DNA of 64,000 nt from Prorocentrum cordatum (GCA_963575745.1 CAUYUJ010000251.1:1-64000), one strand, 5' to 3'; shown: positions 8,575-49,975, numbered from the stretch's first letter. Made by a program: numbers and translations. Notes: generated from the letters alone by a model not told the origin.

Positions 8575-8700
8575 CTATCCGAGGGGGCGCTGGGCCCGGG
8601 CAAAGGAGGGACGACAAGAGGCCTCACAAAGTCAGAGGGGCCAAGGGGCACACACAAATAAATCGACAGGAACCCCAGGATTCCCAAACAAGTCCTATAT

Positions 8701-13590: not shown

Positions 13591-13729
13591 TCGCGAGGGG
13601 TTGGAGCGTCCAAAATGGCCTCGGCGAAGAAGCCACAATCATTGATTTTACTACCGTGTTGGCTACATTCTGGCTTCCGAGGGGGGGGCGTAATTGGAGC
13701 CTCCCTCTTATTTGATCGATCTCCTCCTA

Positions 13730-14830: not shown

Positions 14831-15034
14831 CGAAACCTCTGGTCTTTCTGCTCGCCCTCCTCCTCCTCCTCCTCCTCCTCTTCTTGGGTGTGGCTTCCAC
14901 CTGTTCCCAAATGCTAGGTAAACAATGGTAATACTTTGCCCGTGTCCTGATGGACAGACGCCCTTGACAACCCTCCTTTTCCTCATCCGCCTGTTCTTCC
15001 TGCTTCCTCCTGAATTTTCTCCCTCCCCTTCTCC

Positions 15035-15065
<31 letters not shown>

Positions 15066-17379
15066 TCCTTCTTCTCATCCTCCTGGTCCTCCTCCATCCC
15101 CCCCGTTCTTGGCGTAAGACATCTTGTCCACCTCTTTATTCCACTGGTGAGCCTTTCTGGGTGGGCTGGTGGGGTGACGCGAAATGTCTAGAATCTGGTT
15201 GACTCAAAATATGGAGCATGCGCGGGTGCCCCGTGACCACGCTGCGTTGGTTTCTGATACAGACATGGGGTCGCCAACACATTGCCTGCTACGCGTACTG
15301 TAGGCCGGAACTTCCCCACCATCCGTGGCATAAAACAAATACCCCAACGAAACACCCGAATAACAACTAAGGTGTGGCGGCGGGTGGACGCCTCGTCGGC
15401 TTGCGAAAACGATCCCATCATATTTTCGATGCGATAACGGAATTTATCTTGCTGACGTTCGTGGTGTCGACATGATGGCACGCACGCGCTTGGAATGACA
15501 TTACGTGCGTAACGACACCACTCTGGGCAGCCAGAATGGTGAGAAACCGGTGGCCCTCCCACACTTGCTGGACCTAGGACGCCTGGAATGGTGAGGACCC
15601 GATGCCCCTGCCACAATTTCAGGACCTGCGACGGCTGAGATCGAGCAGGAGCACCAGAGTGAGTCTCATTTCTGGACCTGCGAAGGCTGAAATCGAGCCA
15701 GGACATTCGCCCCCCCGCCCCCTGTGGAGATTCGTCTTGGATCGAAATCGAGCCCAGACACCGTAGTGAGTAGTCCTGGACCAAATCGAACCAAAACACC
15801 ATAGTGAGTCTCATTTCTGGATCTGGAAGGGTTGAAAACGAACCACTGCACGATAGGGGGCTGGCCGCATTGCAAGAACGAGTCGAACTAGAACACTAAA
15901 GCGAGTCTCATTTCTCGATCTGCGAGGGCTGACATCGAGCCAACATTCGCGCCCCCAAAATGGGACAATCTATAATCACATAACTCAAACACATCGGATT
16001 CGAGCCACATGAGAAGGCCGATCACTAGGCATCGACGACAACGTATGAACATTCGAGCCGCAGCAGAGGTGGTGCGAGGGCTCAGGAGGTCCATGAGCGC
16101 CCGGAAGCCAGAAAACGTCAACACGCTGACGTCAGATACGCATGAATTCCTGGCCTTCCGTCCCGGGGCCTGGGGAGGGCTCGGGAGGCCCCGGGGAGAG
16201 CCGCCCAGGGTCCTAGAAATCCACGAACACCGGAACAAAAATCAACCTCCGACCTCCGACCGTCCGTCCCAGGACGCGGGGAAGCCTCGGGAGACACACG
16301 CACGGGCGGTACCGTAGCTTTGACCGTGCATTGGAAGTCGTAAAGATCATCGCCGGGCGGGCCGCCCGACTTCCCATCCCCCTGATGCAAAGCTTAGGAT
16401 ACCGACGAACGACGACGGCAATGGACATCATCGGTGATGTCGTCGCGTCGCGACGTTGCTCAGCTTTGCGTCGCTGGGGGGAACGGGGGGGGGGGAGCGC
16501 GGGCTTCGCGTTCGCACTGCGACAGATTCGGCTACCGCCGCATGGGCGCGCCGTGGCGTTTCTGCTACGATCGCTTTCCGAACGGCGCAATCTGCGGCAG
16601 CGCGGTCGACAGTTTTTGTACCCGGCAAGGGCCAAGACTGTCCGCGGCGTCACCAAAGCCTCGTGGTGGGAGAAGTGCAAGGGGCGGAGATCTGGCTCGG
16701 CGGCTCAATGCTGCGCGGTCGCTTTCACGCGCGCCCTGGACGCTTCGCTTGGCGCCGCGCAACTGGCGTTGCAGCCTGCATGGGGAATGCGCCGCGCGAC
16801 GTGCGCGCGACGCAGCGAACTGATTCTGCAGGTTGATACCGCCACTCGCCCTAGCCAGCGCGGGGGCGCCCCCTGGCGTCGCTTTCGCGGAGGAGCCGAC
16901 GGAAGCCGCATAGGAGCCGATAGAAACCGCGCAGAAACCGCCCCAACCAAGTAAAAGTAAAGTTTACAACTTTGTAAGGTGTGCGGCGGTTTCTGCAAAA
17001 TGCAGTTTCTGCGCGCTTTCTACACGGTTTCTCTCGTTTCCTGCACGGTTTCTACAACGAAGAAGCAGCGGCGGCGTTCGGCTTCATTTAAAACTGGAAT
17101 GGGAAAGCGGCTGGCCAGCCACTTTCCTGTTCTATTCTGAATTTCGAGCGGGAACGGTCCGACGACGGCGACAACCGAGGGCCGCCTGGGACGCTGGCGA
17201 TGCGGTGGCGCCACTGGGCGCCCCCGCGCCGCGTCGTGTCGAAACGTGATCGGATCTACGCAAGGCGGACATATCACATGTGCACCTGGTCGACGCAGTG
17301 CGTTATCGAGCTCTGATGCGCGCGAGAAGAAAAACGACCATCCGCGCGAGATGATGCGTTGAGAACGCGCACAGGCTCC

Positions 17380-20300
17380 CAAGACGTCCCATGAGGCCCC
17401 CAAGACGGCCCAAAAGGACCCCTAGAAACCCTCAGGCGGCCCCGAGAAACCCCCAAGATGGCGCCCGAACGGGCTCGACGGCGCAATATTGCCCGAAGAC
17501 GGCCCAACACTCCCCCAAGAGACCTCCAGGAATCCCCCTGAGGAACAGGCCGCCAAGAAGCCCCCAGGAGCCCTCCAAGAGCGGCCCCACAGGTCTCCAA
17601 TGGATTGGACTGGACACGTCCAGCAGGCCCCCAAGAAGCCCCCAGGAGTTCCCCAAGTGGGGCCGAAGAGGACTGGACAGACCCCGAGCAGCTCGAAGTC
17701 CACGTCCGGAGGTGACGTGCTGAGCGGCAGCATTTTTCGGCGAAGGCCTTAATGCAACGTATCAATTGTATCTGATAATTGTAGAATTGCTACATAGATT
17801 GTATTGTATTAGATTATTATGACCCCCCCCTGACACCCCTTGGCGTCGCGCCACTCCGCAGGCCCAAGGTTTCCCCCCCCCCTTCTCGCGCCCTCGAAAC
17901 CGTAGAAAAAACTAAAGGAAATCTGCGATTTGGGCCTCTTGGGCCTCTTGGGAGCTTTAGACTGCTGCTGCAAAATTGCCCAGGATGGCCTCGGGGCCGG
18001 TCCAGACAACCCGACAACAGCCCAAAATGGCCCATCCAGGATTCATGAGGCCCTCCAGACAGCCAAAGAGGGCCCCAAAAACACCCACAACGGCGCCTCC
18101 ATAATCGAAATTCACTGGTTTCCCGATATATTTTGACAGATTTTATCGCTCTCGCCTGCTTCGACTCTCAAAAACCAACGACGGTCAACGCAGCGGCCAA
18201 AATTGCCCCAAGAAGACCCAAGACCCACCAAAAGGGGCCCAAAACAGCCCCGTACCGACCAAAGACGGCCCCCAACGCGGTCCAGGAGAGACGGCCCAAA
18301 AGGACTCCAAGAACGTTCCAAGGCGGCGCGAGAAGCCCGCAAGACGGCCTCTGGAGGTATCAGACGGACTCAAAATCCGCCAAGGCGGCCCCCAAACGGA
18401 CCGACATGACCCCACGAGGCCGTGCGCGAAAAACTTCACAGAGGCCAAGAACTCCCCCAAAAAAACTCACTGTGGTGCGCGAGAACACCCTTGCGCATCG
18501 CACGGGAACCTTCATCAAACAGCTCCGCAAGCTGGTACTCTGTGCATGTGCGACGCTTGTACAGGCGGTCCTTCGACAAAACGCTGAAATGCTGCACCTA
18601 ATTAGCTCGATGCACGCGGTGAGGTCCAGCGCACCTCGCTGCAGAGCTGGGCACAGGAGCGGTCCCCGAGCCGGCTCCCGAAGGATCCATGCGACCCTAG
18701 CGCGCCCGAAGACTGTCTCCCAAAAGTCAGCCAAGTCTCATGAAATCGATGCCTACAAGAAACGCCGAACATCTTCCAAAACGACCCAAACGCTTGCGCT
18801 CTCCGCAATCCGGACGAGCACCCCGCGAAGCGAAAGGAATCCACGTCCGGAGGTGACGTGCTGAGCGGCATCGTTTTCCGGCGAACGCCTTACTGCAACG
18901 TATCCAATGTATCCGATGATTGCATACTTGCTTTAGATTGTTCCCCAATCAGAGCTTGCCTCTGTAGGGGTCCTAGCAGATTCATATGGTTAGGTGAGGT
19001 GCGGTGCCGATTTGGTGGCCAGCGGCCGGGTGCCCGGGTGCCCGGGGGTGCCCGGGTGCCCGGGTGCCCGGGTGTCCGGGTGCCCGGGCGTGCCCGGGGG
19101 TGCCCGGGTGCCCGCCCGGTAGCCCTATAGGGCTACGGGTAGCCCTATAGGGCTACCGGCAGCCCTATAGGGTTATAAAGCTATATATATAGCCTTATAA
19201 CCCTAGAGCCTTATAGCCTTATAGCCCTATAGCCCTCTAGACCTATAGCCCCAATAACTTTACAACCCTATAGCCCTAATAGCTCCATAGCTTTATACCG
19301 CTATAACCCTATAGCCCTATAGCCCTCTAGCTCTCTGGCCCTCTATCCCTATAGCCCTATAGCCTTATAGCCCTACAGCCCTTTAACCCCATAACCCGAT
19401 ATCCTTAAACAGATTATGATTGGGTTTTTCTCAGGTGTCATAATGTGTTACGTTTTAATGTCTCCCCCCTACCCCCCCCAGGGCCACGCCACATCCACCG
19501 TTCCAAAGATGGTGGACCCCTTCTGGGCTTCAAAAACCTTCCAAGCCGCTGGGAAATCGATGATTTCGGCCCCGTGGTACTCCGGGGGGCCCAAGAGGGC
19601 TTCAAAATGGCTCACGATGGTTTCTAAACGCCCACGACGGCCCCGAGACGGCCCAAGATGGCCCCAAGAGGGGCCCCAAAACGCCCAAGACGGCCCAAGA
19701 GGGCCCCGGAGAAGCCCCACTAGCGCCTCAGCAAATCCAAACCATTGAATTTCCGAAAAAGATTTTGAAGGATTTTCGCGTTCTCGTTCCTTTCGACTCT
19801 TGACGACCCAACCAGCCTTCAAAATCGCACCATGACGGCTCAAGAAGCGCCCGAGAGGGCCCCAAGACGGCCCAAAGAGGTCCCCAAGACGGCCCAAGGG
19901 ACCCCCGAGACGGCCCAAAAAAACCCCAAGAGAGCCCCCAGGCGGCCGCGAGAGGCCTCCAATACGGCCTCCGCAGGGGCCAAACGGCGCAACAGCGCCC
20001 AATACGGCTCAAGACGCCCCCAGGAGTCCAAAGAGACCCCAAAGAAGTCCCCAAGAGACTCCAGAAAACCCCCAAAACGACTTGACTGTACGCACTCCTG
20101 ACGTGCACCCCGCGAAGCGATGGGGAATCCACGTCCAAAAGTGACGTGCTGAGCGGCAGCGTTGTCTGCGGAAGCGATAATGCAGCGTGTCCAATGTGCC
20201 CAGTGATTGCACAATTGCATAGTATCCCGTTCTTACATAATTGGTGCAAATTGTATTGTGTTACGTTCTAATGTCTCCCCCCTAACCCGCCAGCGCTACG

Positions 20301-22540
20301 CCACATCCGTCGACGACCCCCTCCCGGGGCCCAAAAACCTACCCCAACCCTACAGAAAATATATGATTTCGGCCTGTTCGCCCTCTTGGGGTGCCCAAGA
20401 GGGCGTCATGACGGCTCTATATGGCCTCAAGACGGGCGAAGACGCCCCCAACACGGACCAGGATGGCCCCGAGAGGGCTGAAAAAGCCCCCAAGACGCCC
20501 CAAGAGGGCCCCAAGAGGACCCCCAAGAGCGCCTCCAGAGGCCAACATTACTGATTTCCCATTGGGTTTTTAAGGATTTTGACGTTCTGGCCCTTCTCGA
20601 CTCTCAGAGGCCCATGGCGGTCCAAGCAGCCTCCGAAATCGCCCCAAGACGGCCCAAGAAGCCCAGAAGAGGATCCAAAGACAGCCCAAGAAGACCCCAA
20701 TATGGCCCAAAAAGGCCCCCCAAACGGTCCCAGAGGCCCGCAAGACGGCCCAAGAGCACCCCAAGATCGCTCAAAGGCGGCCCCGAGAGGTCCTCAAGAC
20801 AGCCTCCGAAGGGGCGGAACGGCGCAGAAACGCTCCAAGACGGCCCAAGATGCTCCCAAGAAGCCCCAAGAGGCGCCTAAGAGGCCTCCAAGAGGCCCCC
20901 AAAAGGCCCCCCAAAGGCCTCCAAGAAGCCTCCAAGAGGCCCCAAGAAACCAACCAAAACGGTTCATCACACCCCCAAGAGACCTCCAGGAATTCCGCAG
21001 AGGCTTCCAAGGGAGCCTCCAACAGGCCCCCAAGAAGCCCCCAGGAGTTCCCAAGGGTGGCTCCAGAGGTTTCCAAAGAACTGGATTGGACATACTCCGA
21101 GCAGCTCACAGAGGCCCTCCAAAGGCCCCAATGGCGTTGGCAGCGCCCCAGTTCGGGCAGAACGACACGGCAGACCGGCGCGACAGACGTGCAGGGAAAA
21201 CCACCAGACGCCCAGTCTTTACGTAGTCCGGACGTGCACCCCGCGAAGCGAGAGGAATCCACGTCCAGGAATGATTTGCTGCTGGAGGCGGGCCGCGCAG
21301 CGGTGCGGAAGCCCTAATGCAACGTATCCCACGTATCCAACGATTGCATAATTGCCACATCTTTTATTGCGTTACATTATTCTGTCTCCTTCTGAATCCC
21401 ACCCCAAGGGCCACGCCCCATCTGTTGACCCATCGTGGTGACCCCCATTTGGGGCCAATGGGTCCGGAAACATACAAAAACCGATGGCAAATACATGATT
21501 TAGGCCCCTTGGGCCTGTTGGGGGTCCGAGAGTGCGCCAAGACGGCTCAACATGACCTCGACACGGGCCAAGACGACCCCATGACGGTCCAACATGGCCC
21601 CAAGAGGGCCCCCCACAAAAACCTTAAGAGGGCCCCAGAAGGCTCTCCGAAAGCGCCCTCAACAAAGGCCAACATGTTCCAGCACGCTTTTAAAAGGATG
21701 TTAGTGTTCTCGCCTTCTTGTTCGACCTCAGAGGCCCATGGCGGCCAAAGCAACCTCCGAAGTGGCCCCAGAACGGCCCGAGAAGCCGCCAAGAGGGCCT
21801 CACGACGGCCCACAGAGGACCCAAAGAAGGTCCAAGAGGCCCCCGAGACTGTTCAGAGGAGCCCAAGAGTGTCGATCTCGGATCGGTTCGTCGATCGAGG
21901 ATCGCATCTTTTCCCGGAAGGGCGCCCTGGCTCAAGGGCCCTAAACAGGGCCCCAATGCGGCCGCGAGAGGCCCACTGGACGGGCTCCGAACGGGGGGGA
22001 ACTGCGCAAAAACGCACCAAGACGGCACAAGACGCTTTGTAGAGGCCCCCAAGAGGCCTGAAGCCCCAAGGAGGCCTCCTAGAGGCTCCCCACAGGCCCC
22101 CAAGAGGCCTCCAAGAGGCCCGCAAGAGGCCCCAATATGCCACCAAAAGGCAAATGAAACTGTATACGAATAGCACGTTGTTGCTATGCTCATCGGAATT
22201 TGAACTTGGCGTTGCTTCTTGCCTCTGAAGAGACCGTGCAGCGCGGAAGCGCCCGAAAACTGCCCAAGACGCGCCAAAGGGCCCCCAAGACTCAAGACCC
22301 AAGACGGCCCAAGACGCATATGCCATCCAGAGACCAGGATGACGCGCGACAACATGGCGCCGTCTTTGTGCCCGACCCGCTTCCCAGCAAGGACACGGTA
22401 AGTACCCGCGACGACAGACCCGCGCTCGACGAAGCTCATGCAAACGGCGAGGGCTCCATCCCCGACGCAGCGGAGCTGAAGCCCTAATGCAACGTATCCC
22501 ATGTATCCAATGATTGTACACTTGCCACATATTGTATGGT
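17380..22540 (+). repeat. Degenerate ~1.1-1.3 kb macro-repeat (CCCAAGA-rich body plus conserved ~100 bp box)
   Basis: The box TCCACGTCCGGAGGTGACGTGCTGAGCGGCA...TAATGCAACGTATCCAATGTATCC recurs at ~17699, 18840, 20128, 21258 and (partial) 22485. Confidence 0.75.
19025..19400. repeat. Adjacent short tandem repeats (GTGCCCGG)n and (AGCCCTAT)n
   Basis: 8-9 bp units directly visible. Confidence 0.9.
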
Positions 22541-27192: not shown

Positions 27193-27795
27193 TTCTCACA
27201 ACCATCCTGTGGTGTTGGGTCCTCGTTTTGAAGAGACGGTCCCCGCGTTCCTCCATCCTCATTTCTTCCTCCCCCTCTTCCATCCTCCGTGCGTTTGCAC
27301 CACCCAGTACAGCGCTTCGTGGCCGCATAGGGAGCTCCACCGAAGCCCCCAGTGGGACCGTCCGGGACGCATGAATTTGGCACTTTCACCCACCCAATAC
27401 AACGCTTCGTGGCCCCATAGGGAGCTCCACCGACGCCCCTAATGGACCACCGTCCGGGACGCATGAATTTGGCATTTTCCCTCGCCCAGTACAGCGCTTC
27501 GTGGCCGCATGGGGAGCTCTACCGAAGCCCCCAATGGGACATCCGGGATGCATGAATTCGGCACTTTCACCCAACAAATAAAGCGTTTGGCCCCATAGGG
27601 AGTTCCACCGACGCCCCCAATGGGACCGTCCAGGACGCATGAATTTGACATGCTCACCCACCCAGTATAGCGCTTCGTGGCCCCCATCGGGAGCTCCACC
27701 GAAGCCCCCCAGTGGGACCGCCCGCGTGCGTCCCACACGCCCAATTCTATGGCAGTTTCGCTCACCCAGTACAGCGTGGGACCTCCCGCATGCGC
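27193..27795 (+). mobile_element. Tandem-array element copy 3, ~89-bp array, tail missing (runs into CA array)
   Basis: Conserved head from 27198 and ~5 units with core CGCTTCGTGGCCCCATAGGGAGCTCCACCGA. Confidence 0.75.
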
Positions 27796-27802
27796 CCCCC
27801 CC

Positions 27803-28614
27803 AACACACACAAACACACACAAACACATACACAAACACGCACGCAGGCACGCACACACACACACACAACACACAAACACAACACACAAACACAACACAC
27901 ACACACACAACACACAACACACAACACACACACACAACAAACACACACCCACACACACACACCCACACACCCACACGCACACACACACACACCACACCCC
28001 CACACCCCCACACCCCCACACCCCCACACCCCCACACCCCCACACCCCCACACCCCCACACCCCCACACACACCCACACACCCATGCTCACACGCACACG
28101 CACGCGCACGCGCACGCGCACGCGCACGCGCACGCGCACACGCACACGCACACGCACACGCACGCGCACACGCACACGCACACGCACACGCACAGCACGC
28201 ACGCACACGCACACGCACACGCACGCGCACGCGCACACGCACGCGCACGCGCACGCGCACGCGCACGCGCAAGCGCACGCGCACGCGCACGCGCACGCGC
28301 ACGCGCACGCGCACGCGCACGCGAACGCGCGCGCGCGCGCACACGCACACGCACACGCACACGCGCACGCGCACGCGCACGCGCCACACGCACACGCACG
28401 CGCACGCGCACGCACACGCACACGCACGCGCGCACGCGCACGCGCACACACGCGCACGCGCACGCACGCACACGCACGCGCACACGCGCGCCACGCACAC
28501 GCTCACGCACACGCACGCGCTCACGCACGCACGCACGCACGCACGCACACGCGCGCATGCGCACGCGCACGCGCACGCGCGCGCGCACGCGCACGCGCGC
28601 GCACGCACGCGCGC

Positions 28615-28659
<45 letters not shown>

Positions 28660-29142
28660 CCCACGCACCACACCACACCCCCACACACGCACACGCACAC
28701 GCACACGCACACGCGCACACACACACACACACACGCACACACACGCACACACACACGCACACACGCACACACACACACGCACACACGCACACGCACGCGC
28801 ACGCACACGCACACGCACACGCAAACGCACACGCACACGCACACGCACACGCACACACACACACACGCACACGCACACGCACACGCACACACATACACAC
28901 ACGCACACACACACACGCACGCACACGCACACGCACACGCACACCCGCACCCGCACCCGCACACACGCGCACACGCACACACGCACACACGCACACACAT
29001 ACACACACAGACACACACACACACACGCACACGCGCACACACACACACACACGCACACACACACACACACACGCACACACACACACACACGCACACACAC
29101 ACCACACACACACGCACACACACGCACACACACACACACACA
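27803..29142. repeat. Compound (CA)n/(CACG)n/(CACGCG)n/(CACACCCC)n microsatellite
   Basis: Directly visible. Confidence 0.98.
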
Positions 29143-29164
29143 TCCGTAGCCACTTTGGCTCAAG
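29143..29164 (+). other. Genomic copy of the dinoflagellate spliced leader (DinoSL)
   Basis: TCCGTAGCCACTTTGGCTCAAG versus consensus DCCGTAGCCATTTTGGCTCAAG: 21/22 match, full length. Confidence 0.92.
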
Positions 29165-29327
29165 GCTATGAACCGCCCGACGACCGCGAGTCCCTTCTCG
29201 GGCGTCTCTGAGCGCGAGGGGGTTCGCGGTCTGAGGCAACTAACTTCGAGCAAGGTTCTCTCTCCTGTGGCTGGCCTGGCCGTCATCCTGCTTCTCGCGG
29301 GCGCAGCTTCAGTGTGGTTGGGGAGCA

Positions 29328-30507
29328 ATGGCGCCAACTGCCGCTGGAGGGAGGCCAGGCGCTCGCGCGGCGCGTCGTGACAAATGGCTGTGCAAATCCT
29401 GCCTGGGACGCGATCGCAAGCCCTCTGAACTTTGCCGACAAGGTACGCTGCAACAGTTGTGGTCTGGCAAAAAGCGTCGTGCACGGGGGCCCCGTCAAGT
29501 CCACCACGCCATCCAAGCCAGCTCCTTGAGCCCAAGGCGGTGGTGGAAGCAAAAGCGCTGGCTCCATCTCGGCGCAGCTGCTGGGGATGCAGAAGCAGGT
29601 GCGCGCTCTCACGTAGGAGCTCAAGCTGGCAGAGGCGAAGGCTCCTGAGGTGAGCGCGCCCCCCGCCGGCGTCAAGAGCGGCGAGGGCGACGCCGGTGCC
29701 GAGTCTGCTGTCAAGAAGCGGCTGGACGAGCTGGATGGCGTTCTCAAGGAGCTGGCTGGCGTCGACGCCCCAGAGGTTGCCCAGCTGGTGGAGTACAAAG
29801 CTGAGCAGGTCAAGTGGCGGGCGCAGCTTTTTCAGGAGAAGCCGCCGTCGCAGCAGCTCAACACTCTCGGTTTCAAGACCACCAAGGTCGAGCAGCATAT
29901 CACCAAGCAGCAGAGCGCCCGCAAGGCGAAGCAGGCGCAGCTGGTGGCCCTGCAGGCGGAGCTCGCTTCGCAGGATGCAGTGCTCGCGGAGCCCCGCAAG
30001 CAGCTGCTCGAGCTCGAGAGCCAGTGGGCCCAGCTCTATGGCGTTCTGCCGCAGCCGCCCACGGGGCCACCTTGCGCCGACGCTGGCAACGACCAGAGCA
30101 GCTGGGCGCTGCCCAAGCTGGAGCAAGTGCTTTTGGCTGCTGGCGCTGCTCCTGACCTGCCGCAGGAGGTGGCTGCAGTGGTGGGCAAGATTCGCCAGCA
30201 CCGCCAGACCCAAGAGCAGCAAGCCCAGGCCCAGCGAGAGGCCAACGAGAAGCAGGCAGCTGAAGCAGCTGCTCAGGCAGCCATAGAGCAGCAGGATGCT
30301 GCCACGGCAGGCGATGCCGATGAGGTCCAGGAGGAGGAGTCGGTCAACCAGGCCACTGCTGAAGAGCTTCGCGATTACCTGCGCGACTCTGGTGCTGAGC
30401 TCCCTAATGCTGCTGAAGCCTCCGAGGAGGAGCTCCGAACAGCTGTCAAGCGCCTCCGCCTGGCCAAGCCCAAGTGGAAGGTGGTCAAGAAGCCACGCGC
30501 GGCCTGA
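29328..30507 (+). pseudogene. LINE ORF1: RanBP2-type Zn finger plus coiled-coil region (frameshifted)
   Basis: WLCKSCLGRDRKP / LNFADKVRCNSCGLAK across a frameshift near 29423, then the Ala/Glu/Gln/Lys-rich helical ORF 29650-30507. Confidence 0.7.
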
Positions 30508-30526
30508 GTTCTCCCTGTCGCCGACC

Positions 30527-33500
30527 ATGACGAGAACCAAGTTGCATACTACCGCAGTTAATGCCAAGCCTTTTAGCACCTTGTCCAAGCACCTCGTCGA
30601 CAGCAGCAGTGACGTGGCCATCGCGCAGGAGCACCACGCGCGCTCTGACAAGCCGAGGTGCAGGGTGACACCCAAGGCGCTGGCTGGCGTGGCGTCTGGT
30701 GCCCCGCGTTGCCCACCGCGGCAAGGGGCACTGAGGGAGGCGTCGCGGTCCTGGCCCAGACTGAACTCGCCGTCGCCCAGGCGCCGCTGCTGGACGACGG
30801 CATCATTGTGCCAGGCGGGGCCGTGGCGGCCCACGTCCATGCTGCCCTGACTGGCGGCTTCGTGGCGGTGGCTCTCTACCTCCGCACGGGCGAGGGCAGG
30901 TCGCCCCCCAACCTGGCGCTGGTGTGGCAGGTCGTGCAGTATGTGAAGCGCGTGGCCGCAGGCCCTGTGCTGTCGTGGGTCGTCGGTGGCGGCTTCGACA
31001 TGTCGCCGCAGGAGCTGCTGGGGCATGACTGGCTCCCCTTGGCTGGCGCCAGGTGCGTTGGCCCGCTGGGGCCGACCTGCATGCAGGCCGTGCCTGCCGC
31101 GACGCTGGGCGATTTCCTGGTGCATGGGCCCATGCTGCATGGCGTCGCGTTCGAGGTTGGCGACTCCGTCACTGGCATCACCTGGCCACATCGGCCCGTC
31201 ACGCTGGCCATTGCCAAGCGCGCGGGGCCGCCGATCGCCCGCGAGCTCGACGAACCGAGGCCATTCCTCGGGAGCCGCCTGTGGGGTGTGCGCGCTACCC
31301 CTGGCGCGGCTGGGGGCAGGTATACGGCTCCATCGATCAGGCGCAGTCTCTTCCCCAGCTCGCGACAGCATGGGGTTTGGTCCTCCGAAGCGTTGGAGGA
31401 GGAGCTTGCAGGAAGACGCGACATCGTCGGCTCTCGCAAGCAGCGCTACGTGGGCAGAGAAGGCACAGTCCAGCAGCGCACGCGCCAACTCCGGCGGCGC
31501 CCTCCTGCGCGACGAGCACGCCACGGCCCCGACGTGAGCGCGTGGACTGTCGCGGCCTGGCGGGCCCAGCACATCATGCAAGTGCGCGGCTGCGCGAGCA
31601 AGACAGTCGCCCAGCTCACAATCTCCCAGGCCGATCAGAAAGAAGAGCAAAACCAGGTGGTCAGGTGGACCCCTCATCGCGCGCGCCGTCTGTCCCTTCC
31701 AATGGCAAGCAGACCGCGCAGGGGAGCAGCAGCGGCCAGGTGGACCCTGCAACTACCCCCTCAGAGGTCAGGCCAGCTCTGGTTTCGACTTTGGAGGCTG
31801 ACCTTATCGAACTAACGCCGGTTGGGGAGCATGGCCCGAACGTGATCGACGGCAGCGCAACTACGCGCACCCTGTATGCCCATGGGAAAGGGCCTGCTGC
31901 TTGTGAGGCCCACAGCGGTGGGGTGGCCGATGCCCTCACACATGTTGTGGCTACTGGCGGCCTGGCGAGGTGCTGCGACGCTCGCCCCGTCGCCCCCTCC
32001 CTGCAAGCCCGAGCGAGGCCCACAGCGGTGGGGTGGGCGAGGCCCTCGCGCAGCAAGTTGCTCCTGGCGGCCTGGTGAGGTGCTGCGACGCTCGCCCCGA
32101 CGCCCTCCCTGTAAACCCGAGCGAGGCCCACCGCGGTGGGGTAGCCGATGACCTCGCACGTGGTGTTGCTCCTGGCGGCCTGGTGAGGTGCTGCGACGCT
32201 CGCCCCGTCGCCCCCCCTGTAGGCCCGAGCGAGGCCCACGGCGGTGGGGTGGCCGATGCCCTCGCGCACGGTGTTGCTGAAGGCGGCATGGAGAGGTGCT
32301 GTGACGCTCGCCCCGTCGCCCCCCCTGCAAGACCGACGCTGCGCAACGTGGGCGGCGAGATGGGCCCCTTCGACGAACTGGATGCGGCGCCGCTGGGCGC
32401 CGAATAAGGTCAGGATGGTCTGGAGGCTGGCGGCCCGCAAAGGCCCGGTCAGGATCCCTCCCCGCTGGTCGCGCTATCCGCGGGGAGGTCGGTCGTCGCC
32501 AAGATGGGCGCTGGTGAAGACAGCCAGTCCCCGGATCCCAGTCTCGCTCACGATGGACACGGAGGTGGTGCTAACCAGGCGGGGCCTGGCGGCCTGCCTA
32601 GGCTTGGTCAGGGCCCCTCCCCGCTGCGCGCTCGACCCGCCGGGGAGCCTTCGCATGCCGCGATGGACGCTGGTGAAGATCGCTAGGCTCCGCCCGAGGA
32701 CCGCGGTGAGGACCCCGACCAGGTAGTGGCGCAGCGACGACGAGAAGCACGCCAACGGGGGCTCCGACGGCGCGCCCAGCACTGGATCGGCGACCCGCTC
32801 CACGACCAGCAGACCGAGCAGGACGTTCTCGACGACTGGATGGAGCGGTGCGTGCCGCGCACAGCGGAGCAGCTGCGGGGCCCAGTCTTCGATGCCCTGT
32901 GGGGCGGTGGCGGCTGGGGCGAGGCCCCGCCGCGAGATGCGCGACGGTGGCATCGGGCCCGTGAGATGTGCGAGTCGGCCTGCCGGCAGCCGCAGCCGCA
33001 GTCGCAGCTGCGCCAACGCTCTGAGGAGGACTGGGCCGAGGCGGCAGACATGGATTTACGAGCCTTCGAGCAGCAGCGGCAGTGGCTCGACCAGCGCTCA
33101 GGCGATCGAGCAGGCCGTGCACCTCAGCCGCGGCCTCCAGGAGCTGCCAGAAGCATGGTCTTCCACGGGTTGCAACACTACACGCGGCTCCATAGCCTGG
33201 CCGCCGAGCTGCTCGCCTTCGAGGCGTTCTTTGGGCGCATCAGCAAGCAGCAGCACATCCTGAGACAGCTGGATGGCGGTGCTCGTGAGATCTTCCAAGC
33301 CAGCCCTAGGGCGCTGGCCAGCCGCTCGGTGGAGGTCCGACTGCAGGGCATCATCGCCAAGGCCAAGGAGTTCACCGCGGAGGCTGTGGCCAGGTGCACC
33401 AAAGCCTGGGCCACTTGGGCGAAAGACGCGTTCGCGGGAGGCGCTGGGCTGGCACGCAGGTTCGCCAAGCCGAGGCAGAAGGTAGAAGTCCCACGGGCCA

Positions 33501-36320
33501 GTGTGAGTGGCCACCCATGCGACCTCGCGAACACGGAGCTCGGCGACTGGAAGGCCATTTGGGAGCACCACCAGCTCGGCGAGGCCTCGCTCCCTCCTGG
33601 TGCTGAGCATTGGCCAGAGCTTCCGCACCTCGCGGTGCAAGACCTGCTCTCGGCCATCCGCTCTACCAAGCAGGGCGCGGCCGTTGGCCAAACAGGCCTC
33701 CGCCCGAGGCAACTCGACGTCCTCTCCGACGAGGCGTTGCTGGCGCTGTCGCTACTATTACACACCTGTGTGCATCGCCTCGGATGACCGCCGCAGCGCA
33801 TCGTTACAGTCCTAATCCGATTACCAAAAGCTGGAGGAGGCATGAGACTGATCGGGCTACTCGACGCGGCGGGTTCGCCTCGGGAGTCGCGCGCGGCGCC
33901 CGCTGGCAGCCCAGTGGGAAGCCACCCATCGAGAGGAGCACGCCTGGGGGCTTGGCCCGGGCATGAGTTCTTCTGCCTCCGTTTTCGCCTACAACCTGTC
34001 CTCGAAGATTACGCTGGCCAGGCAACAGGACGTGATCACACTCATGGTGGACTTGACGAAATGTTTCGAAATGGTTGCGCCTGTAGTATGGGTGCGCGAA
34101 GCTATGAAAGTGGGATTCCCACCGAGACTTGCATGGCGACTGGTGCAGTTATACTGCCAGCCTTGCGTGGGGCGGGCCCACGGTAGCGAGAGCGAGCTCT
34201 ACATCTCGTTCCAGGGCATCGTGGCAGGCTGCCCGCAGGCGACCACGCTCCTGGCGGTGCTGATGCACAGAGCCATGCTGCGGCTCAGCGCCCAATGCCC
34301 CGCGCTGCAGCCCAGGCAGTTGGTGGGCGACGTGCGTTGCAGCGGACTGGCCCCGCTGGCCGCAGTTCGCTGGGGCTTGGTGAAAGCATCGACCAGCTCA
34401 CGCACGAACTCAAGTCCCTCAAGCTGCCCATCCAGGTCAAGAAGCTGGGCTACGTGGCTTCGTCTAATCGCGCTGCACGGCGGTTCAGCTTGGCGGCGCG
34501 GGCTCGGCAAATCGCAGGCCTACCGTGGATCCGCAACCTCGGGCACGAGTTGGGTGGGCCCAGGGTGCGACGCCGCCTGGAGGCCGACAGACTTGCGCAG
34601 CTACGCGGCCGAGTTCGACGATCCATGATTCTCAAGAAGGCAGTGGGTGCCAGGCGCATGGCGCGCATCCAGACGGCTGGACTCGCACCCTCGGTCACGC
34701 ACGGGGCCTCGGTCAGTGGGGTCGCAGACGCCGCGCTCAAGCCGATCCGATCGGTAGCTGCCATGTTGGCAGGAGTGCGCCCCACGGGCAGCATCTGCAG
34801 GGACGTGCTCATGCAGGACCAGGCGCTGTACGACCCGCTCTACGCGGCGACCGCCAGCATCGCCTACATGTATGCGACCCAGCTCTGGGAAGGCCGGGTG
34901 GAAATGCAGGCCCTGAGGGCCGCGCGGCGGTTCTTGGACGGCCAGATGCGCACCCAGCCCAACTGGGGCAAAGTACGTGGACCCATCGGCGCGCTGTGGC
35001 TTTCTTTGGCTCGGATCGGCTGACGGCTCAGCTCGGCTACCACGTTCGAGACCCACCTTGGCACTGTGTTGCGCCTCCTGGAGATGTCACCTCGCGACGT
35101 CCGTGACCAAGTCGACCAGGGGGTCATGCGCTGGCTGTTGGCGCGGGCCGAAAGCCACATCGAGGGGCACAACGGCGAGCAGTTCTGGCACCGCGGCATT
35201 CGGCGGTGCGTGGAGAAGGCCGTTCGGGATCCTTCCGAAGGAGGCTCGCTGCAGTGTGTTTGGACTGATGCGATGTGGCCTCGCCAGAAAAAGTTGGAGA
35301 AGATACTGACCTCTGATGGTCGTTGTCTGGCATGCGGTGCACAGCGTGAGACCCGCGGCCATCGTTGGCACAAGTGCCCTGCGCTCCTGGACCCTGCCCT
35401 GCACGAGACGGAGCCCCCAGAAGCCATCATTAAGACCCGCGAGCGTTTGCTTGAACCAGCAGGCCCTGGAGTCTGCCCTGGATGAGCCCCATGAGGCCCT
35501 GAGGTTTGCCTATGCCATCCCGCTCGAGCTCCCTCCCGCTGAAACCCCGCCCATGTGCCCCGATTTCGTGCACCATTGGGGGGATGCGGAGCTGCCTTGG
35601 GGCGGCCGTCTGTGCATTGATGGCGGTGGTCTTGGCATGGGCACTCCTGAGATTGCCAGACGTTCGCGGGCCGTGGCCCAGTTGCGAGACGACGGCTGGC
35701 CCTGCATGGCGATGTTCGGCACTCTTCCAGGGGCGCAGACGGTGGCCCGAGCTGAGAGATATGCTGGGCTGATCACTGCTTGCCTCTCCCCTCAGGTCAC
35801 CAGTCTTGTCTCGGACCAGTTCAGTTTTGTTGGGGGAGGGCGACTGTGGAGCCCTCGCGACGCGCCCGCCTCGGCTCGCCAAGACAGGAGGCCGCCGTCG
35901 TTTGGAGGTATTCCCTCGCACAAATCCCTGGCCCAAGCTATTGAGCTCGATCTTGACCTCCAGGGTTGGCTCGGTAATGGGTGGGCCGACCTGTTTGCCA
36001 GTGTTGCCCTGGACTTGGCCAGCCTCGCCGAGAGCCTGGCTCGTAGTCTGAAGGTTCGCCTGGAGGAGGCCTGCCTGGACGCTCGTTTCTTGGCGCGGGC
36101 TTCTGCTCGCGTGGCTGGCTCGGGCGCCTGGGGCCCCGTGGAGGCTGACCCTCGGGGACCTCGCCCCGAACCTCGGCCACCCAAACTGCCCACGTTTGTT
36201 GCGCGCGAAATTGCGGCGCTCCCTGGATGGGGGTGCCCGTTGCACGGCTTGCAGCCGCGTCGCTCGCACGGCAGAGGCCGTGCGATGTCTTGAACCGTTT
36301 CCCTGCGTGGCTTCCCGCTT
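30527..36320 (+). pseudogene. LINE ORF2: APE endonuclease, reverse transcriptase, CCHC Zn knuckle, RNase H (multiple frameshifts and stops)
   Basis: APE: TAVNA..DVAIAQEHH, GGVAVL, WVVGGGFD, LGDFLV, WPHRPV (30527-31210). RT: AVGQTGLRP, LPKAGGGMRLIGL, VDLTKCFEMV, QGIVAGC, LVGDV (decayed YxDD), RNLG (33670-34545). CCHC: CLACGAQRETRGHRWHKC (~35325-35380). RNase H: LCIDGG, QTVARAE, VSD, IPSH, GNGWADLFA (35610-36000). Confidence 0.88.
31905..32340 (+). repeat. Four ~108-bp tandem repeats inside LINE ORF2
   Basis: GAGGCCCAC recurs at 31905, 32015, 32123 and 32231. Confidence 0.9.
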
Positions 36321-37511
36321 GGCCGGGCTCCGCGCCCAGGCGGCCATGCAGGCCGAGGGGGTCAGCCCTGCCCCTCCGCGCCCCTCCCCCGCGGTGGCCT
36401 TGGCCCTGGCCGCCGCTGCCGCCGTCGCCGCCACTGCGGCTGAGAGGGCCGAGACTGGCCGTTCGCCCAGGCGGCAAGAGGACGACCCTGCCCCCTCTGT
36501 GCCCCCGCTCAGGTCTCGACGCAGGTTGCACGGAACCCATTCGTCCCAAGCCTTCGAGCTGGACCGATCTGCCCGCGCGCAGGCCTCGACCGAACCCTCG
36601 AGCCCGTCTGGGCGCCGGTTTGCCTCGGAGGTCGCGGGCTCGGGGCCCGACGTTTCCCGCTCCTAGCGTCCCGAGAGCAGCCTCTCGGACGATGCCCGAC
36701 GTGCTGCGATCGTGGGTCGCCTCCTCAGAGCTGCGGGGGGTGCACCCGCTGCCCCTGCCTCTCGCCGCGCCCCGCCCTCTCCTGAGCCCCCCTCGGGGTG
36801 GCTTGCTGGAGGCCCCCCTGGAGGAGCTGGAGGGGTCGGCGTGCGAGGTGGCTGGGAGGGCGGGCGATCGCGCGATGCGAACGCAGTCGAGCAGCCCCGC
36901 CCCGCCGACGGCGGCGCCAGCAACGCCCCCGCCACCGTCGGCGCCTGCTGCTGCGGCGCGGGCTCCGGCGAATGCGGGGCCAGGCGGCCCGCCACCGTGC
37001 CGCGACCGCTGCTTCCACCGAGGAGGGGGGCGGGGAGGCGGCTGGGCCTCGTTCGGGTGGGTCGGAGGAGGTCGTCCTGGACCGAGGCCACGAGATCCTC
37101 GCTCGGCCCCCCTCCACTCTCCGCCGCAGAGGAGGCGCCTTGTCCAAGAAGCAGGTGCGGAGTCTGTCTTCAGCCTGCCCTGGCACGCTCCCTGAGCCTG
37201 GGCAGTGCACGACGCCCGCCGGGCGTGAGCGAGCTCGTCGGAGGGATCGGCTTGTTCAGGGGCTCCACCCGATGACGGGTAAGGCTTTGGGCTCGGGGCC
37301 ACAGGCCGCCGCTCCCTCCCAGGGGTGCCAGTTTTCTGGTTTTTCCCTGGCCTCCGAAGGGTTCGGAGGCTCCTTGATCGGCGATTTGGGGATGGCCTGC
37401 TGCCGAGTTTCTGGTTTTGTCCAGGGGCTCCTAAGCGGCCCACGTGGGCCCCGCTGGTTCAGGCCGCGGTCCGTAGCTCCTTGATGCGGAACGTGCGCCC
37501 TTGATTGCCCG

Positions 37512-37620
37512 ACACACACACACACACCCACACACACACACACAAACACCCACACACCCACACACCCACACACCCACACACCCCCATACCCCCACACCCC
37601 CACACCCCCACACACCCACA
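37512..37620. repeat. (CA)n/(CACACCCA)n tract at the LINE 3' end
   Basis: Directly visible. Confidence 0.95.
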
Positions 37621-42491: not shown

Positions 42492-43756
42492 AAATTATCC
42501 CAACGGAAGACCCAACCATATGCAGTTGTGGGTACCGCAATTGTGAAGATATTCTTCGGCGAAGCTCCCTATAGGGCCACGAAGCGCTGTACTGGGTGGG
42601 GGGGGAACGCATGCGGGTGGTAACGCTGGGGCCGTCGGTGGAGTTTCCTATGGTGCCACGAAGCGCTGTACTGGTGGCGGACGCATGCGGGCGGTGCCAC
42701 TGGGACCTTCGGTGGAGCCCCCTTACGGGGCCACGAAACGCTGTACTGGGTGGGTGAAACGCAGGGAGCAAGGGCTGTGCTGGGTGGTGGCGGACGCATG
42801 TGGGCGGTGCCACTGGGCCCTTCGGTGGAGCCCCCTATGGGCCACGAAACGCTGTATGGGTGGGTGGAACGCAAGGAGCAAGGGCAGTGCTGGGTGGTGA
42901 CGGACGCATGCGGGCGGTGCCACTGGGACCTTCCGTGGAACCCCCGATGGGGCCACGAAGCGCTGTACTGGGTGTGCGAAACGCAGGGAACAAGGGCTGT
43001 TGTGGGTGGTGGCGGACGCATGCGGGCGGTGCCACTGGGATCTTCGGTGGAGCCCCCGATGGGGCCACGAAGCGCTGTACTGGGTGGGTGAAACGCAGGG
43101 AGCAAGGGCTGTGGTGGGTGGTGGCGGACGCACGCGGGCGGTGCCACTGGGACCTTCGGTGGAGCCCCCCATGGAGCCACGAAGCGCTGTTCTGGGTGTG
43201 TGGAACGCAGGGGGCAAGGGCTGTGCTGGGTGGTGGCGGACGCATGCGGGCGATGCCACTGGGAACTTCGGTGGAGCCCCCTATGGGGCCACGAAGCGCT
43301 GTACTGGGTGGGTGAAGAGGGAGCAAAGGCTGTGCTGGGTGGTGGCGGACGCATGCGGGCGGTGCCACTGGGACCTTCGGTGGAACCCACGATGGGGCCA
43401 CGAAGCGCTGTACTGGGTGGGTGAAACGCAGGGAGCAAGGGCTGTGCTGGGTGGTGGCGGACGCATGCGGGCGGTGCCAATGGGATCTTTGGTGGAGCTC
43501 CCTATGGGGCCACGAAGTGCTGTACTGGGTGGATGACACGCAGGGAGCAAGGGCTGTGCTGGGTTGTGGCGAACGCACGCGGGCGGTGCCACTGGGGGCT
43601 TCGGTGGAGCTCCCTATGGGGCCACGAAACGATGTGCTGGGTGGGTGAAGCGCATGGAAGAGGGAGAAGGAGGAGGAGAAAAGGAAAGGAGGAGAGGAAC
43701 GCGGGGACCGCCTCTTCAAAACGAGGACCCATCACCACAGGTTGGTTGGGAAAAAC
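42492..43756 (-). mobile_element. Tandem-array element copy 4, 112-bp array
   Basis: Tail (rc) CCCAACCATATGCAGTTGTG at 42511, ~10 units, and head (rc) CTCTTCAAAACGAGGACCCATCACCACAGGTTGGTTGGGAAAAA ending 43755. Confidence 0.8.
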
Positions 43757-48590: not shown

Positions 48591-49975
48591 AAATTATATC
48601 CTGACGAAGAACCCAACCATGTATACCGCGTTGTGGTCATTGCTTTCGGTGAAGCTCCGTGGGGCCACGAACCATGTGAGGTGTGCGCCCGAATTGGCGG
48701 GGAACCGCATGCGAACTGCGCCACGGAGACACTCGGTGGGGCTGCCTACGGGGCCACAAAGCGTGTGAGTGGTGTGCCGAAGCGGGCGCGACGCCCGCAT
48801 GCGAATTGCATCACGGCGGCACTCGGTGAAGCCGAAATTGGTCTGGAACCACACGCGAATTGCGCCACGGGGGCACTCGGTGGTGTGGCCATCGCTTTCA
48901 GTGGAGCTTCCTATGGGGCCACGAAACGTGTAAGGGGAGTGTGCCAAAACGGGAGTAACGCCCACATGCGAACTGCGTCACGGGCACTTCAGGTGGAGCT
49001 CCATGTGGGGCCACGAAACGCATGAGAAACGTGCCGAAACGGGCGTGACGCCCACATTGGATCTGCGCCACTTTGGCCTGAGGTGGAGCGCCGTATGGGG
49101 CCACGAAACGTGTCGGGGTATGCCGAGGCGGGGGTGACGCCAACATGTCAACTGCGCCACAGAAGCACTCGGTCGAGCTCCCTGTGAAGCCACGACACGT
49201 GTGAGGGGTGAGCCGAAACGGGCGTGACGGCCTGATGCGAACTGCGCCACCGTGGCTTTAGATGGAGCTCCCCCTGGGGCCACGAAACGTGTGAAGGGTC
49301 TGCCGAAACGGGTGGGGAACCGCATGCGAACTGCGCCACACATGAACTTGGTGTGGCTCCCTGTGGGGCGACGAAAAGGTGTGATGTGCCGAAAAAAGTG
49401 CGACGCCCGCATGCGAACTGCGCTACGGAAGCACTCGGTGGAGCTGCCTACGGGGCCACGAAACGTGTGAGGGGTGTAACGGCACGGGCGTGACGCCCAC
49501 ATGGGAATTTCGCCACATTTGCCTGAGGAGCGCTATATGAAGCTACGAACCGTGTGAGGGGTGTGCTGAAACGGGATTGACGCCCACATGCAAACTGCGC
49601 CACAGAGGAACTCGGTGAAGCTCCCTATGGGGCCACGAAGCGTGTGAAGGGTCTGCCGAAACCGGCGTGACACCCACATGCGAACTGCGCCACGGAGGCA
49701 ATCGGTGGAGCTCCCTATGGGGCCACGAAAAGTGCGATGGGGTGTGCCGACATGGGCAAAGATGATGCCGCTGATTTGATGGTGGTGATGATGATGCTGC
49801 TGATGCTGATGCTGATGATGCTGCTGATGATGCTGCTGCTGATGATGATGATCATCATCCTCATGCTGATCATCATGATGATCATGATGCTGATAATGAT
49901 AATGATAATGATAATGATAATGATAATGATGCTGATGCTGATGCTGATGCTGATGCTGATAATGATGATGATGCT

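What the first reader, a model, noticed from the sequence alone, without database searches (positions are those of the whole stretch)
29143..37511. LINE whose 5' end is exactly the dinoflagellate spliced leader
Seen: the CA array stops at 29142, and the next 22 nt are a full-length DinoSL (one mismatch), followed by a ~160-nt 5' UTR and ORF1. Established: DinoSL is trans-spliced onto mRNAs, and relict SLs mark retrogenes in dinoflagellates. Inference: this retrotransposon uses host trans-splicing to define and cap its 5' end. It could be expressed by read-through transcription with no internal promoter, then be reverse-transcribed to the cap. The terminal AG of the genomic SL could act as the acceptor in the next cycle, keeping the 5' end constant. 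An alternative is that the SL motif is a fixed, element-encoded signal; it is followed by GC, a usable donor.
Basis: partly seen in the sequence, partly recalled or inferred. Interest (0 to 1): 0.85.

Follow-up and report, generated by a model that had tools for sequence, protein, structure and literature searches.

The report
Dead LINE copy starting with spliced leader
A full-length but broken jumping gene (LINE) in a dinoflagellate genome begins with the 22-letter leader that these cells splice onto their messenger RNAs, as expected if a mature messenger was copied back into DNA.

Summary
Window 29143-29164 is the dinoflagellate spliced leader (DinoSL) with 21 of 22 letters matching. It is the only such match in 64 kb, and 0 of 100 shuffles gave one. 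It lies at the junction between a 1.3-kb CA-type microsatellite and an 8.37-kb non-LTR retrotransposon. That element has a 163-nt 5'UTR and an ATG at 29328, then a zinc-finger-like and coiled-coil N-terminus, APE, RT, an RNase H-like domain, a C-terminal region and a 3'UTR of about 210 nt. A second CA-type array follows at 37511. The copy is dead: at least five frameshifts and three in-frame stops. Contigs of one public DNA run show a multi-copy family whose other members lack three of these breaks.

The best reading is a relict leader from reverse transcription of a trans-spliced, full-length LINE mRNA, the signature already known from dinoflagellate retrogenes. I could not see the 5' ends of other copies. 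The stronger claims therefore remain untested: family-wide use of the leader, no internal promoter, and re-splicing at the terminal AG.

Rejected: chance, an SL-RNA gene, and SL-gene-targeting LINEs.

In a second organism, many contigs carry a CA run and the leader followed by unrelated sequences.

Side observation: giant-virus bins with many genome-encoded DinoSLs upstream of genes.

The parts
27804..29142 (.). Upstream CA-type compound microsatellite, with (CA)n, CACG and CACACCCC variants. It ends directly at the leader.
   Evidence: Tandem Repeats Finder; sequence.
29143..29164 (+). Relict DinoSL, 21 of 22 letters matching, with C instead of T at position 11.
   Evidence: consensus from PMC7245778 passages.
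29165..29327 (+). 5'UTR (leader) of 163 nt. It holds a predicted hairpin at about 29182-29230. An upstream ATG at 29168 opens a reading frame of about 70 codons that overlaps the main start.
   Evidence: The fold is not better than shuffles (z -1.19).
29328..30654 (+). N-terminal region with a zinc-finger-like motif and a coiled coil. It is broken by a 2-nt loss after 29427, TGA at 29527-29529, TAG at 29614-29616 and a stop at 30505-30507.
   Evidence: alignment to P0004 residues 32-268, E 3e-20; other copies have +TC after 29427 and G at 29529.
30655..31449 (+). Apurinic-type endonuclease (APE, Exo_endo_phos) domain.
   Evidence: tblastn of P0001 residues 235-495, E 7e-28. Pfam on P0001 and P0003. 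The window piece alone gets no Pfam hit.
31450..33163 (+). Linker that is about 1.5 kb longer than in P0001. It holds a 108-bp x4 tandem repeat at 31905-32336.
   Evidence: Two X1 contigs skip 31942-32169.
33164..35449 (+). Reverse transcriptase with a downstream zinc-binding part, read in three frame segments. Frame changes lie near 33859 and near 34334.
   Evidence: Weak Pfam RVT_1 (E 0.0086) and zf-RVT (E 0.019). Other copies have +T after 34334.
35490..36137 (+). RNase H-like domain.
   Evidence: Aligns to P0003 residues 1364-1560. That stretch gives a weak Pfam RNase_H match, E 0.0024, below the curated cut-off.
36232..37301 (+). C-terminal region, with further frame changes. Its end resembles the C-terminus of P0166 and P0168 (...LHPKTGASLGGAP).
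   Evidence: The C-terminal comparison was made by eye.
37302..37510 (+). 3'UTR, ending ...CCCTTGATTGCCCGA. There is no poly(A).
37511..37620 (.). Downstream CA-type array. It is either the target microsatellite or the element's own tail.

Best explanation
This is one full-length but mutationally dead insertion of an APE-RT-RNase H non-LTR retrotransposon lying inside a CA-type microsatellite. Its first 22 nt are a relict DinoSL.

Mechanism. The template for target-primed reverse transcription was a mature LINE mRNA that had already received the leader by trans-splicing. The reverse transcriptase copied it to its last nucleotide. This is the same mark that retroposed cellular genes carry in dinoflagellates. 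The C at leader position 11 is most simply a later substitution in a decaying copy.

Shown: the leader and its exact position; the identity and completeness of the element; its decay; that the family is multi-copy.

Inferred: trans-splicing of the LINE transcript, copying to the cap, and the age of the mismatch.
For: Leader: unique in the window, with 0 of 100 shuffles giving a match. It lies exactly between the CA array and the 5'UTR.

Completeness: the coding region is complete at its N-terminus. It runs collinear with relatives through APE, RT and the RNase H-like domain to a family-like C-terminus.

No other source for the leader: there is no second leader, no relic and no SL-gene array in the window.

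Family: in run X1, 583 contigs lie on all 30 bins of the element. By identity they split 48 at 99% or more, 98 at 95-99%, 148 at 90-95% and 289 below 90%. They carry +TC after 29427, G at 29529 (turning TGA into TGG) and +T after 34334, which are three of the window copy's breaks.

Literature: dinoflagellate mRNAs carry DinoSL and retrocopies keep it (passages). Genes with upstream DinoSL are enriched for 'RNA-dependent DNA replication' (PMC5585692 passages).
Against: - Only this one 5' end was seen.
- No RNA evidence was obtained.
- The leader has a mismatch in the motif ATTTTGG.
- The element ends in a CA-type run rather than poly(A), so it differs from ordinary retrogenes at the 3' end.
- In organism C (run X3), CA-run plus leader junctions are followed by unrelated sequences. 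The link between CA runs and the leader may therefore have a cause I have not identified.
Confidence: 0.7

Rival explanations
1. The family has no promoter of its own and depends on read-through transcription plus trans-splicing to create its 5' end. The genomic leader is renewed each cycle through its terminal AG, or acts as a core promoter as proposed for retrogenes.
For: - The copy has exactly one complete leader joined directly to the 5'UTR, with no 15-nt relic.
- The upstream CA array has no AG in its last 133 nt (last one at 29009). The first two AGs after it are at leader positions 6-7 and 21-22.
- PMC5585692 proposes that TTTT/TTTG inside DinoSL acts as a core promoter (legend passage).
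- Contigs of other copies cover the leader-proximal 5'UTR.
Against: - The documented relics arise from the internal AG or from TG (PMC12014239 passages). That route would add relics at every cycle, and none is present.
- A single first-generation copy from a leaderless master explains the same picture.
- No transcript and no second 5' end were seen.
Confidence: 0.3
2. Chimeric retrocopy. The reverse transcriptase switched from the LINE RNA to another leader-capped RNA, so the leader and the first tens of nucleotides belong to a different transcript.
For: Three X1 contigs leave the window sequence behind 29192 and three more behind 29220.
Against: - By eye, both loose ends are still similar to the window sequence a little further on. 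The first resumes at about 29222 (7 of 10 letters). The second matches 12 of its first 18 letters at 29221-29238. They therefore look like diverged or deleted versions of the same 5'UTR.
- One X1 contig joins 29195-29464 (table 8, record 1).
Confidence: 0.07
3. The leader belongs to an SL-RNA gene or pseudogene next to, or targeted by, the LINE, as with SL-gene-specific LINEs of trypanosomatids and nematodes.
For: The leader is followed by GC, which is a donor seen in Fugacium SL genes (PMC6616646 section 3).
Against: - It is a single leader in 64 kb, with no array.
- The DNA upstream is a microsatellite.
- The exon motif ATTTTGG is broken, and there is no GTTTTC or CTTTTG in 29143-29500.
- Rfam gives nothing near its thresholds.
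- The leader is whole on the 5' side, and nothing at the 3' junction continues it.
- The element has an APE endonuclease.
Confidence: 0.04
4. A chance match.
For: None.
Against: 0 of 100 shuffles gave a match with up to 3 mismatches. The match also lies exactly at the repeat/element boundary.
Confidence: 0.005

Closest known systems
Dinoflagellate retrogenes with relict DinoSL (PMC7245778, PMC12014239, PMC5585692, PMC6050394; passages read)
   Same: A genome-encoded leader sits at the 5' edge of a retroposed unit. The origin is the same in both: a trans-spliced RNA copied back into DNA.
   Different: - The retroposed unit here is the retrotransposon itself, complete from leader to 3'UTR.
- The relic is the full 22 nt, not the usual truncated 15-nt form behind a new leader.
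- The 3' end is a CA-type run, not poly(A).
SL-gene-specific LINEs (SLACS, CZAR, CRE of trypanosomatids; NeSL-1 of nematodes).
   Same: A LINE physically joined to spliced-leader sequence.
   Different: As recalled, those elements carry a restriction-like endonuclease and insert inside the leader exon of SL-RNA gene arrays. Here the element has APE, the leader is whole, there is no array, and the leader is at the element's own 5' end.
Pr77 of trypanosomatid L1Tc/ingi elements (abstracts of PMC1874656 and PMC8190864 in the search listing)
   Same: A LINE in a lineage that trans-splices its mRNAs, with a defined short 5' module.
   Different: Pr77 is an internal promoter that gives unspliced transcripts, which is the opposite solution. 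No promoter activity is known for the 5'UTR here.
Microsatellite-associated LINEs (for example R1-clade elements in (AC)n, Dong in (TAA)n). Recalled, not read.
   Same: This copy has the same type of microsatellite on both sides.
   Different: Only one insertion was seen. Whether the family targets CA arrays is open.

Membership tests
Non-LTR retrotransposon (APE-type LINE) | APE endonuclease N-terminal to the reverse transcriptase, in one reading direction | tested here: met
   tblastn of P0001 places APE at 30655-31449 and RT at 33164-35449. P0001 and P0003 pass Pfam's cut-off for Exo_endo_phos, and P0003 passes it for RVT_1. The window pieces alone stay below the cut-offs.
Non-LTR retrotransposon (APE-type LINE) | No long terminal repeats | tested here: met
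   blastn of the element against the window finds nothing outside the element itself at E 1e-5.
Non-LTR retrotransposon (APE-type LINE) | Target-site duplication and a defined 3' tail | tested here: inconclusive
   Both flanks are CA-type repeats, so a duplication cannot be told apart from the array.
Non-LTR retrotransposon (APE-type LINE) | Dispersed multi-copy family | tested here: met
   583 contigs of run X1 lie on all 30 bins, at identities from below 90% to 99% and above. The closest named protein is P0011 at 71% identity, from Prorocentrum cordatum.
Relict-DinoSL retrocopy | DinoSL encoded in the DNA at the 5' edge of the retroposed unit | tested here: met
   21 of 22 letters at 29143-29164, directly before the 5'UTR.
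Relict-DinoSL retrocopy | The transcript of the copy carries a new leader followed by the relic | not testable with these tools
   No RNA run was listed.
SL-RNA gene | Leader exon followed by a GU or GC donor | tested here: met
   GC at 29165-29166. The criterion comes from PMC6616646.
SL-RNA gene | Sm-type motif: AUUUUGG in the exon, or GUUUUC downstream | tested here: not met
   The exon reads ACTTTGG. No GTTTTC or CTTTTG occurs in 29143-29500.
SL-RNA gene | Tandem arrays, or linkage to 5S rRNA genes | tested here: not met
   There is one leader in 64 kb. Rfam finds no family above threshold at 29100-29500. The rest of the window was not scanned with Rfam.
SL-gene-specific LINE (SLACS/CZAR/NeSL type; features recalled) | Insertion inside the leader exon, so that leader pieces flank the element | tested here: not met
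   The whole leader is on the 5' side. The 3' flank is a CA array.
Microsatellite-targeting LINE | Independent copies flanked by the same microsatellite | tested here: inconclusive
   This copy is flanked that way. 8 of the 583 X1 contigs run over the ends of the laid stretch, but their sequences were not shown.

The most novel reading that the evidence does not exclude
This LINE family is the retroposition engine of its host.
- It is transcribed by read-through and capped by trans-splicing.
- It is copied to the cap and integrated into CA-type microsatellites.
- The same machinery places other leader-capped RNAs there. That would explain the many CA-run | leader | unrelated-sequence junctions seen in a second organism.
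- It would link dinoflagellate retrogenes to a LINE, rather than to the LTR elements favoured in PMC6050394.
Probability: 0.2. Interest if true: 0.75.

Novelty: new member of a known kind. Interest (0 to 1): 0.45.

Why it matters
Which reverse transcriptase makes the thousands of retrogenes in dinoflagellates is an open question. PMC5585692 says it is unknown what mediated the reverse transcription. PMC6050394 says it is unknown which type of retro-element did it and leans towards LTR elements.

A LINE copy that itself carries the complete leader shows three things. LINE messengers enter the trans-splicing pathway. A LINE reverse transcriptase can copy a leader-capped RNA to its end. The insertion can be compared directly with retrogene insertions in its flanks, tails and relic forms.

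This makes the question testable in any assembled dinoflagellate genome.

The fact itself follows from known biology, and RT-type genes with upstream leaders have already been counted among retrogenes. The surprise is therefore moderate.

Tried and rejected
Sources for other copies.
- No whole genome is held for this window.
- Earlier findings of the scan: nothing by place, words or sequence.
- A 23-nt stretch of the 5'UTR has 0 matches in metagenome contigs.
- A protein-guided scan of metagenome contigs gave 3 distant loci, L001-L003, at 24-27% identity. Their best leader match has 8-9 mismatches of 21.
- Viral contigs and genome-contig scans with the protein alignment gave nothing, or bacterial endonuclease-family genes only.
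- There is no second copy of the element, and no empty-site paralogue of its flanks, in the window.

Sequencing runs.
- No RNA holder was listed.
- Run X2 gave 0 contigs laid.
- In X1, contig depth looked higher around 29193-29205 than over the body. The tool states that contig depth cannot rank parts of a gene, so I draw nothing from it.

Protein routes to the 5' junction.
- I searched the protein collection with a 41-aa translation that reads through the CA run, the leader and the 5'UTR. The best E-values were 2.4-6.6, so nothing was found. A first try of 39 aa was too short.
- The N-termini of P0001-cluster members start with Met and carry no leader-encoded residues.

Classification and structure.
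- Pfam on 11 window pieces: none reaches a curated cut-off.
- PDB sequence search with P0001: only two weak endonuclease-fold matches at E 0.004.
- Rfam on 29100-29500: 4 matches, all far below gathering scores.
- The 5'UTR fold is no better than shuffles.

3' end.
- The 3' end holds TCCGTAGC (leader positions 1-8) at 37470. Leader 8-mers occur 28 times elsewhere in the window, so I treat this as chance.

Literature.
- Searches, and passages of the papers listed in the full report, gave no description of a LINE whose 5' terminus is DinoSL.
- Supplements were not opened. Those of PMC5585692 and PMC8045281 may list such genes.
Full report
OBSERVATION

The sequence at 29143-29164 is TCCGTAGCCACTTTGGCTCAAG. 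The published DinoSL is DCCGTAGCCATTTTGGCTCAAG (passages of PMC7245778). The window copy therefore differs at one position, C for T at position 11. Allowing up to 3 mismatches, the 21-mer occurs once in the 64-kb window on both strands. None of 100 dinucleotide-preserving shuffles gave a match.

Tandem Repeats Finder places a CA-type compound microsatellite at 27804-29142, ending directly before the leader. A second CA-type array lies at 37513-37620. The element's last letters are ...CCCTTGATTGCCCGA, followed by the CA run starting at 37511.

WHAT THE ELEMENT IS

Pfam gives nothing above its cut-offs on 11 reading-frame pieces of the window. There is only a weak RVT_1 match (E 0.0086) and a weak zf-RVT match (E 0.019).

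A protein search with the piece 32687-33787 found one relative, P0001, of 1811 aa. P0001 carries Exo_endo_phos at 220-404 and a sub-threshold RVT_1 match (25.9 bits, cut-off 29.6) at 775-989. By tblastn it aligns to the + strand in six segments:
- 30655-31449
- 33164-33859
- 33855-34334
- 34397-35449
- 35490-36137
- 36232-36345

These lie in changing frames, at 33-50% identity.

Ten relatives were found with P0001. Four are unnamed proteins of the dinoflagellate Prorocentrum cordatum. P0003 shows APE at 201-402, RT at 781-1028 and a weak RNase H match at 1375-1522. The window stretch 35577-36116 aligns to that last part.

The only ATGs between the leader and 29330 are at 29168 and 29328. I read the region from 29328 with X at its breaks. 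It aligns to residues 32-268 of P0004 at E 3e-20. The alignment includes a W-x-CKS...NF-x-D-x3-C-x2-C motif and a coiled coil.

The N-terminal region and APE share one frame, and P0004 and P0005 are single proteins. By eye, the window frame 36786-37484 ends like the C-terminus of P0166 and P0168. That puts the family's stop near 37301 and leaves a 3'UTR of about 210 nt.

The copy is thus complete from leader to 3'UTR, but it is dead:
- a 2-nt loss after 29427;
- stops at 29527, 29614 and 30505;
- at least four further frame changes.

It also has about 1.5 kb more than P0001 between APE and RT, with a 108-bp x4 tandem repeat at 31905-32336.

THE FAMILY

No genome is held for the window, and the window has no second copy.

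One public run, X1, holds 0.24 of the element's sampled words. It is recorded as 'DNA?' and kept as contigs. Laid at 80% likeness, 583 of its contigs cover all 30 bins:
- 48 at 99% identity or more
- 98 at 95-99%
- 148 at 90-95%
- 289 below 90%

The best holder may be the sample the window came from, so the near-identical contigs are not independent support. The diverged ones do show a multi-copy family.

These contigs carry differences that fall on three of the window copy's breaks:
- +TC after 29427 (4 contigs, all of the depth there);
- G instead of A at 29529, turning TGA into TGG (2 contigs);
- +T after 34334 (3 contigs, 10.8 of 17.9 depth).

More intact members therefore exist.

A search of 1.84 billion representative proteins with the piece 34187-35023 found 215 relatives at E up to 0.001 and 45 at E up to 1e-10. 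The two closest are 71% and 82% identical. The first of these is a partial Prorocentrum cordatum protein.

THE DECISIVE TEST COULD NOT BE DONE

I could not see whether other 5'-complete copies begin with the leader.
- The read-laying output shows only part of its rows.
- It lists one X1 contig joining 29195-29464.
- It lists contigs that leave the window sequence behind 29192 and behind 29220, three each.

By eye, both loose ends resemble the window sequence slightly further on. The first resumes at about 29222. The second matches 12 of its first 18 letters. I therefore read them as diverged or internally deleted versions of the same 5'UTR, not as foreign sequence.

Eight X1 contigs run over the ends of the laid stretch. 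Their sequences are not given.

All other routes failed. They are listed under Tried and rejected.

A SECOND ORGANISM

Run X3 is from the same study but another organism. It has 110 laid contigs, and only 7 of 30 bins are covered. Seven of the eight listed pieces match only 29128-29164 or 29128-29166, that is, the CA flank plus the leader.

The sequence then continues differently:
- 12 contigs diverge behind 29164 (agreement 0.47);
- 3 diverge behind 29166 (agreement 0.62);
- 2 diverge behind 29167 (agreement 0.60).

So CA run | leader | unrelated sequence occurs at many places there.

Only contigs that hold both the CA run and the leader could be laid. No enrichment can therefore be claimed.

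HOW IT MOST LIKELY WORKS

Dinoflagellate mRNAs receive DinoSL by trans-splicing, and retroposed copies keep it in the DNA (passages). A full-length LINE mRNA copied to its 5' end by target-primed reverse transcription would produce exactly this structure.

The mismatch fits a decaying copy.

Both flanks are CA-type repeats. The simplest reading is insertion into an existing array, or priming through a CA-type tail. A target-site duplication cannot be read in a repeat.

These claims are open: no promoter, a 5' end defined by trans-splicing, and renewal through the terminal AG.

The CA array has no AG in its last 133 nt. The next AGs are at leader positions 6-7 and 21-22. The documented relics, CCATTTTGGCTCAAG and CTCAAG, come from the internal AG and from TG (PMC12014239 passages). 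Cycling through those sites would stack relics, and none is here. Use of the terminal AG would be invisible.

A first-generation copy of a leaderless master fits equally well.

PMC5585692 proposes that TTTT/TTTG inside the leader acts as a core promoter for retrogenes (figure-legend passage). In this copy TTTT has become CTTT.

REJECTED READINGS

Chance is excluded.

An SL-RNA gene is unlikely. The GC after the leader is a usable donor (PMC6616646 section 3). However:
- there is one leader in 64 kb;
- the upstream DNA is a microsatellite;
- ATTTTGG is broken;
- no GTTTTC follows;
- Rfam finds nothing.

SL-gene-specific LINEs, as I recall them, sit inside the leader exon of gene arrays and use another endonuclease. 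Here the leader is whole, single and 5'-terminal, and the enzyme is APE.

LITERATURE

I read passages of PMC3229502, PMC7245778, PMC12014239, PMC8045281, PMC10235124, PMC6050394, PMC11453091, PMC3942190, PMC10666404 and PMC5585692, and section 3 of PMC6616646. Five searches for the LINE question and these passages gave no description of a LINE whose 5' terminus is DinoSL. A sixth search concerned the giant-virus side observation.

The nearest statement is in PMC5585692: genes with upstream DinoSL are enriched for 'RNA-dependent DNA replication'. Reverse-transcriptase genes tagged by the leader have therefore been counted, though not dissected.

PMC6050394 states that the mediator of retroposition is unknown and leans towards LTR elements.

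Supplements were not opened.

VERDICT

The explanation is an expected consequence of known biology, applied to the retrotransposon itself. It is a clean new example rather than a new kind of system.

Its value is as a handle on which machinery makes dinoflagellate retrogenes, and on how a LINE is expressed in a trans-splicing genome.

SIDE OBSERVATION

I scanned IMG/VR for the exact 21-mer leader. It returned 119 stretches, mostly in giant-virus bins with a median GC of 0.20.

Among the 137 unique sites:
- 129 are preceded by A;
- the 60 nt upstream are 90% A+T at the median;
- of the 123 sites with at least 1 kb downstream, 113 have an ATG-ORF of at least 100 aa starting within 600 nt, at a median of 52 nt after the leader.

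None has a CA run upstream, and none has LINE-like coding sequence.

One search found no paper on this.

Noticed in passing
L006-L124 (IMG/VR contigs, mostly named GVMAG): Very AT-rich giant-virus bins (median GC 0.20) hold 137 unique exact DinoSL 21-mers. Of these, 129 are preceded by A, and 48 lie behind an AAT[CT]AATTTT motif. Of the 123 sites with at least 1 kb downstream, 113 are followed within 600 nt (median 52 nt) by an ATG-ORF of at least 100 aa. Some leaders stand in tandem 50 nt apart (L029). It looks as if viruses of dinoflagellates encode the host leader in front of their genes. One literature search found no paper on this.
   Followed up: partly
window 29128-29167, as laid by run X3: In another organism of the same study, at least 17 contigs carry a CA run plus the leader and then continue with unrelated sequences. 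Because only such contigs could be laid, it is open whether leader-bearing retrocopies prefer CA arrays.
   Followed up: partly
window 31905-32336: A 108-bp x4 tandem repeat lies inside the LINE between APE and RT. Two X1 contigs skip 31942-32169, so the repeat number varies between copies.
   Followed up: partly
window 29168-29380: An upstream reading frame of about 70 codons starts 4 nt after the leader and overlaps the main ATG at 29328. It has a hydrophobic stretch. It may be chance in GC-rich DNA.
   Followed up: no
window 37470-37510: The last 41 nt of the element hold TCCGTAGC (leader positions 1-8) and two CCTTGAT motifs, which are complementary to the leader's TCAAGG end. Leader 8-mers occur 28 times elsewhere in the window, so this may be chance.
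   Followed up: partly
window 8700-10000, 27300-27724, 42550-43750, 48650-49740, 53250-54500, 58130-59180: One satellite family with units of 89-112 bp occurs in both orientations over much of the window. The LINE lies in a repeat-rich stretch.
   Followed up: no
window 13700-21000: Long stretches show an 11-nt periodicity of the type CCCAAGAnGGC.
   Followed up: no
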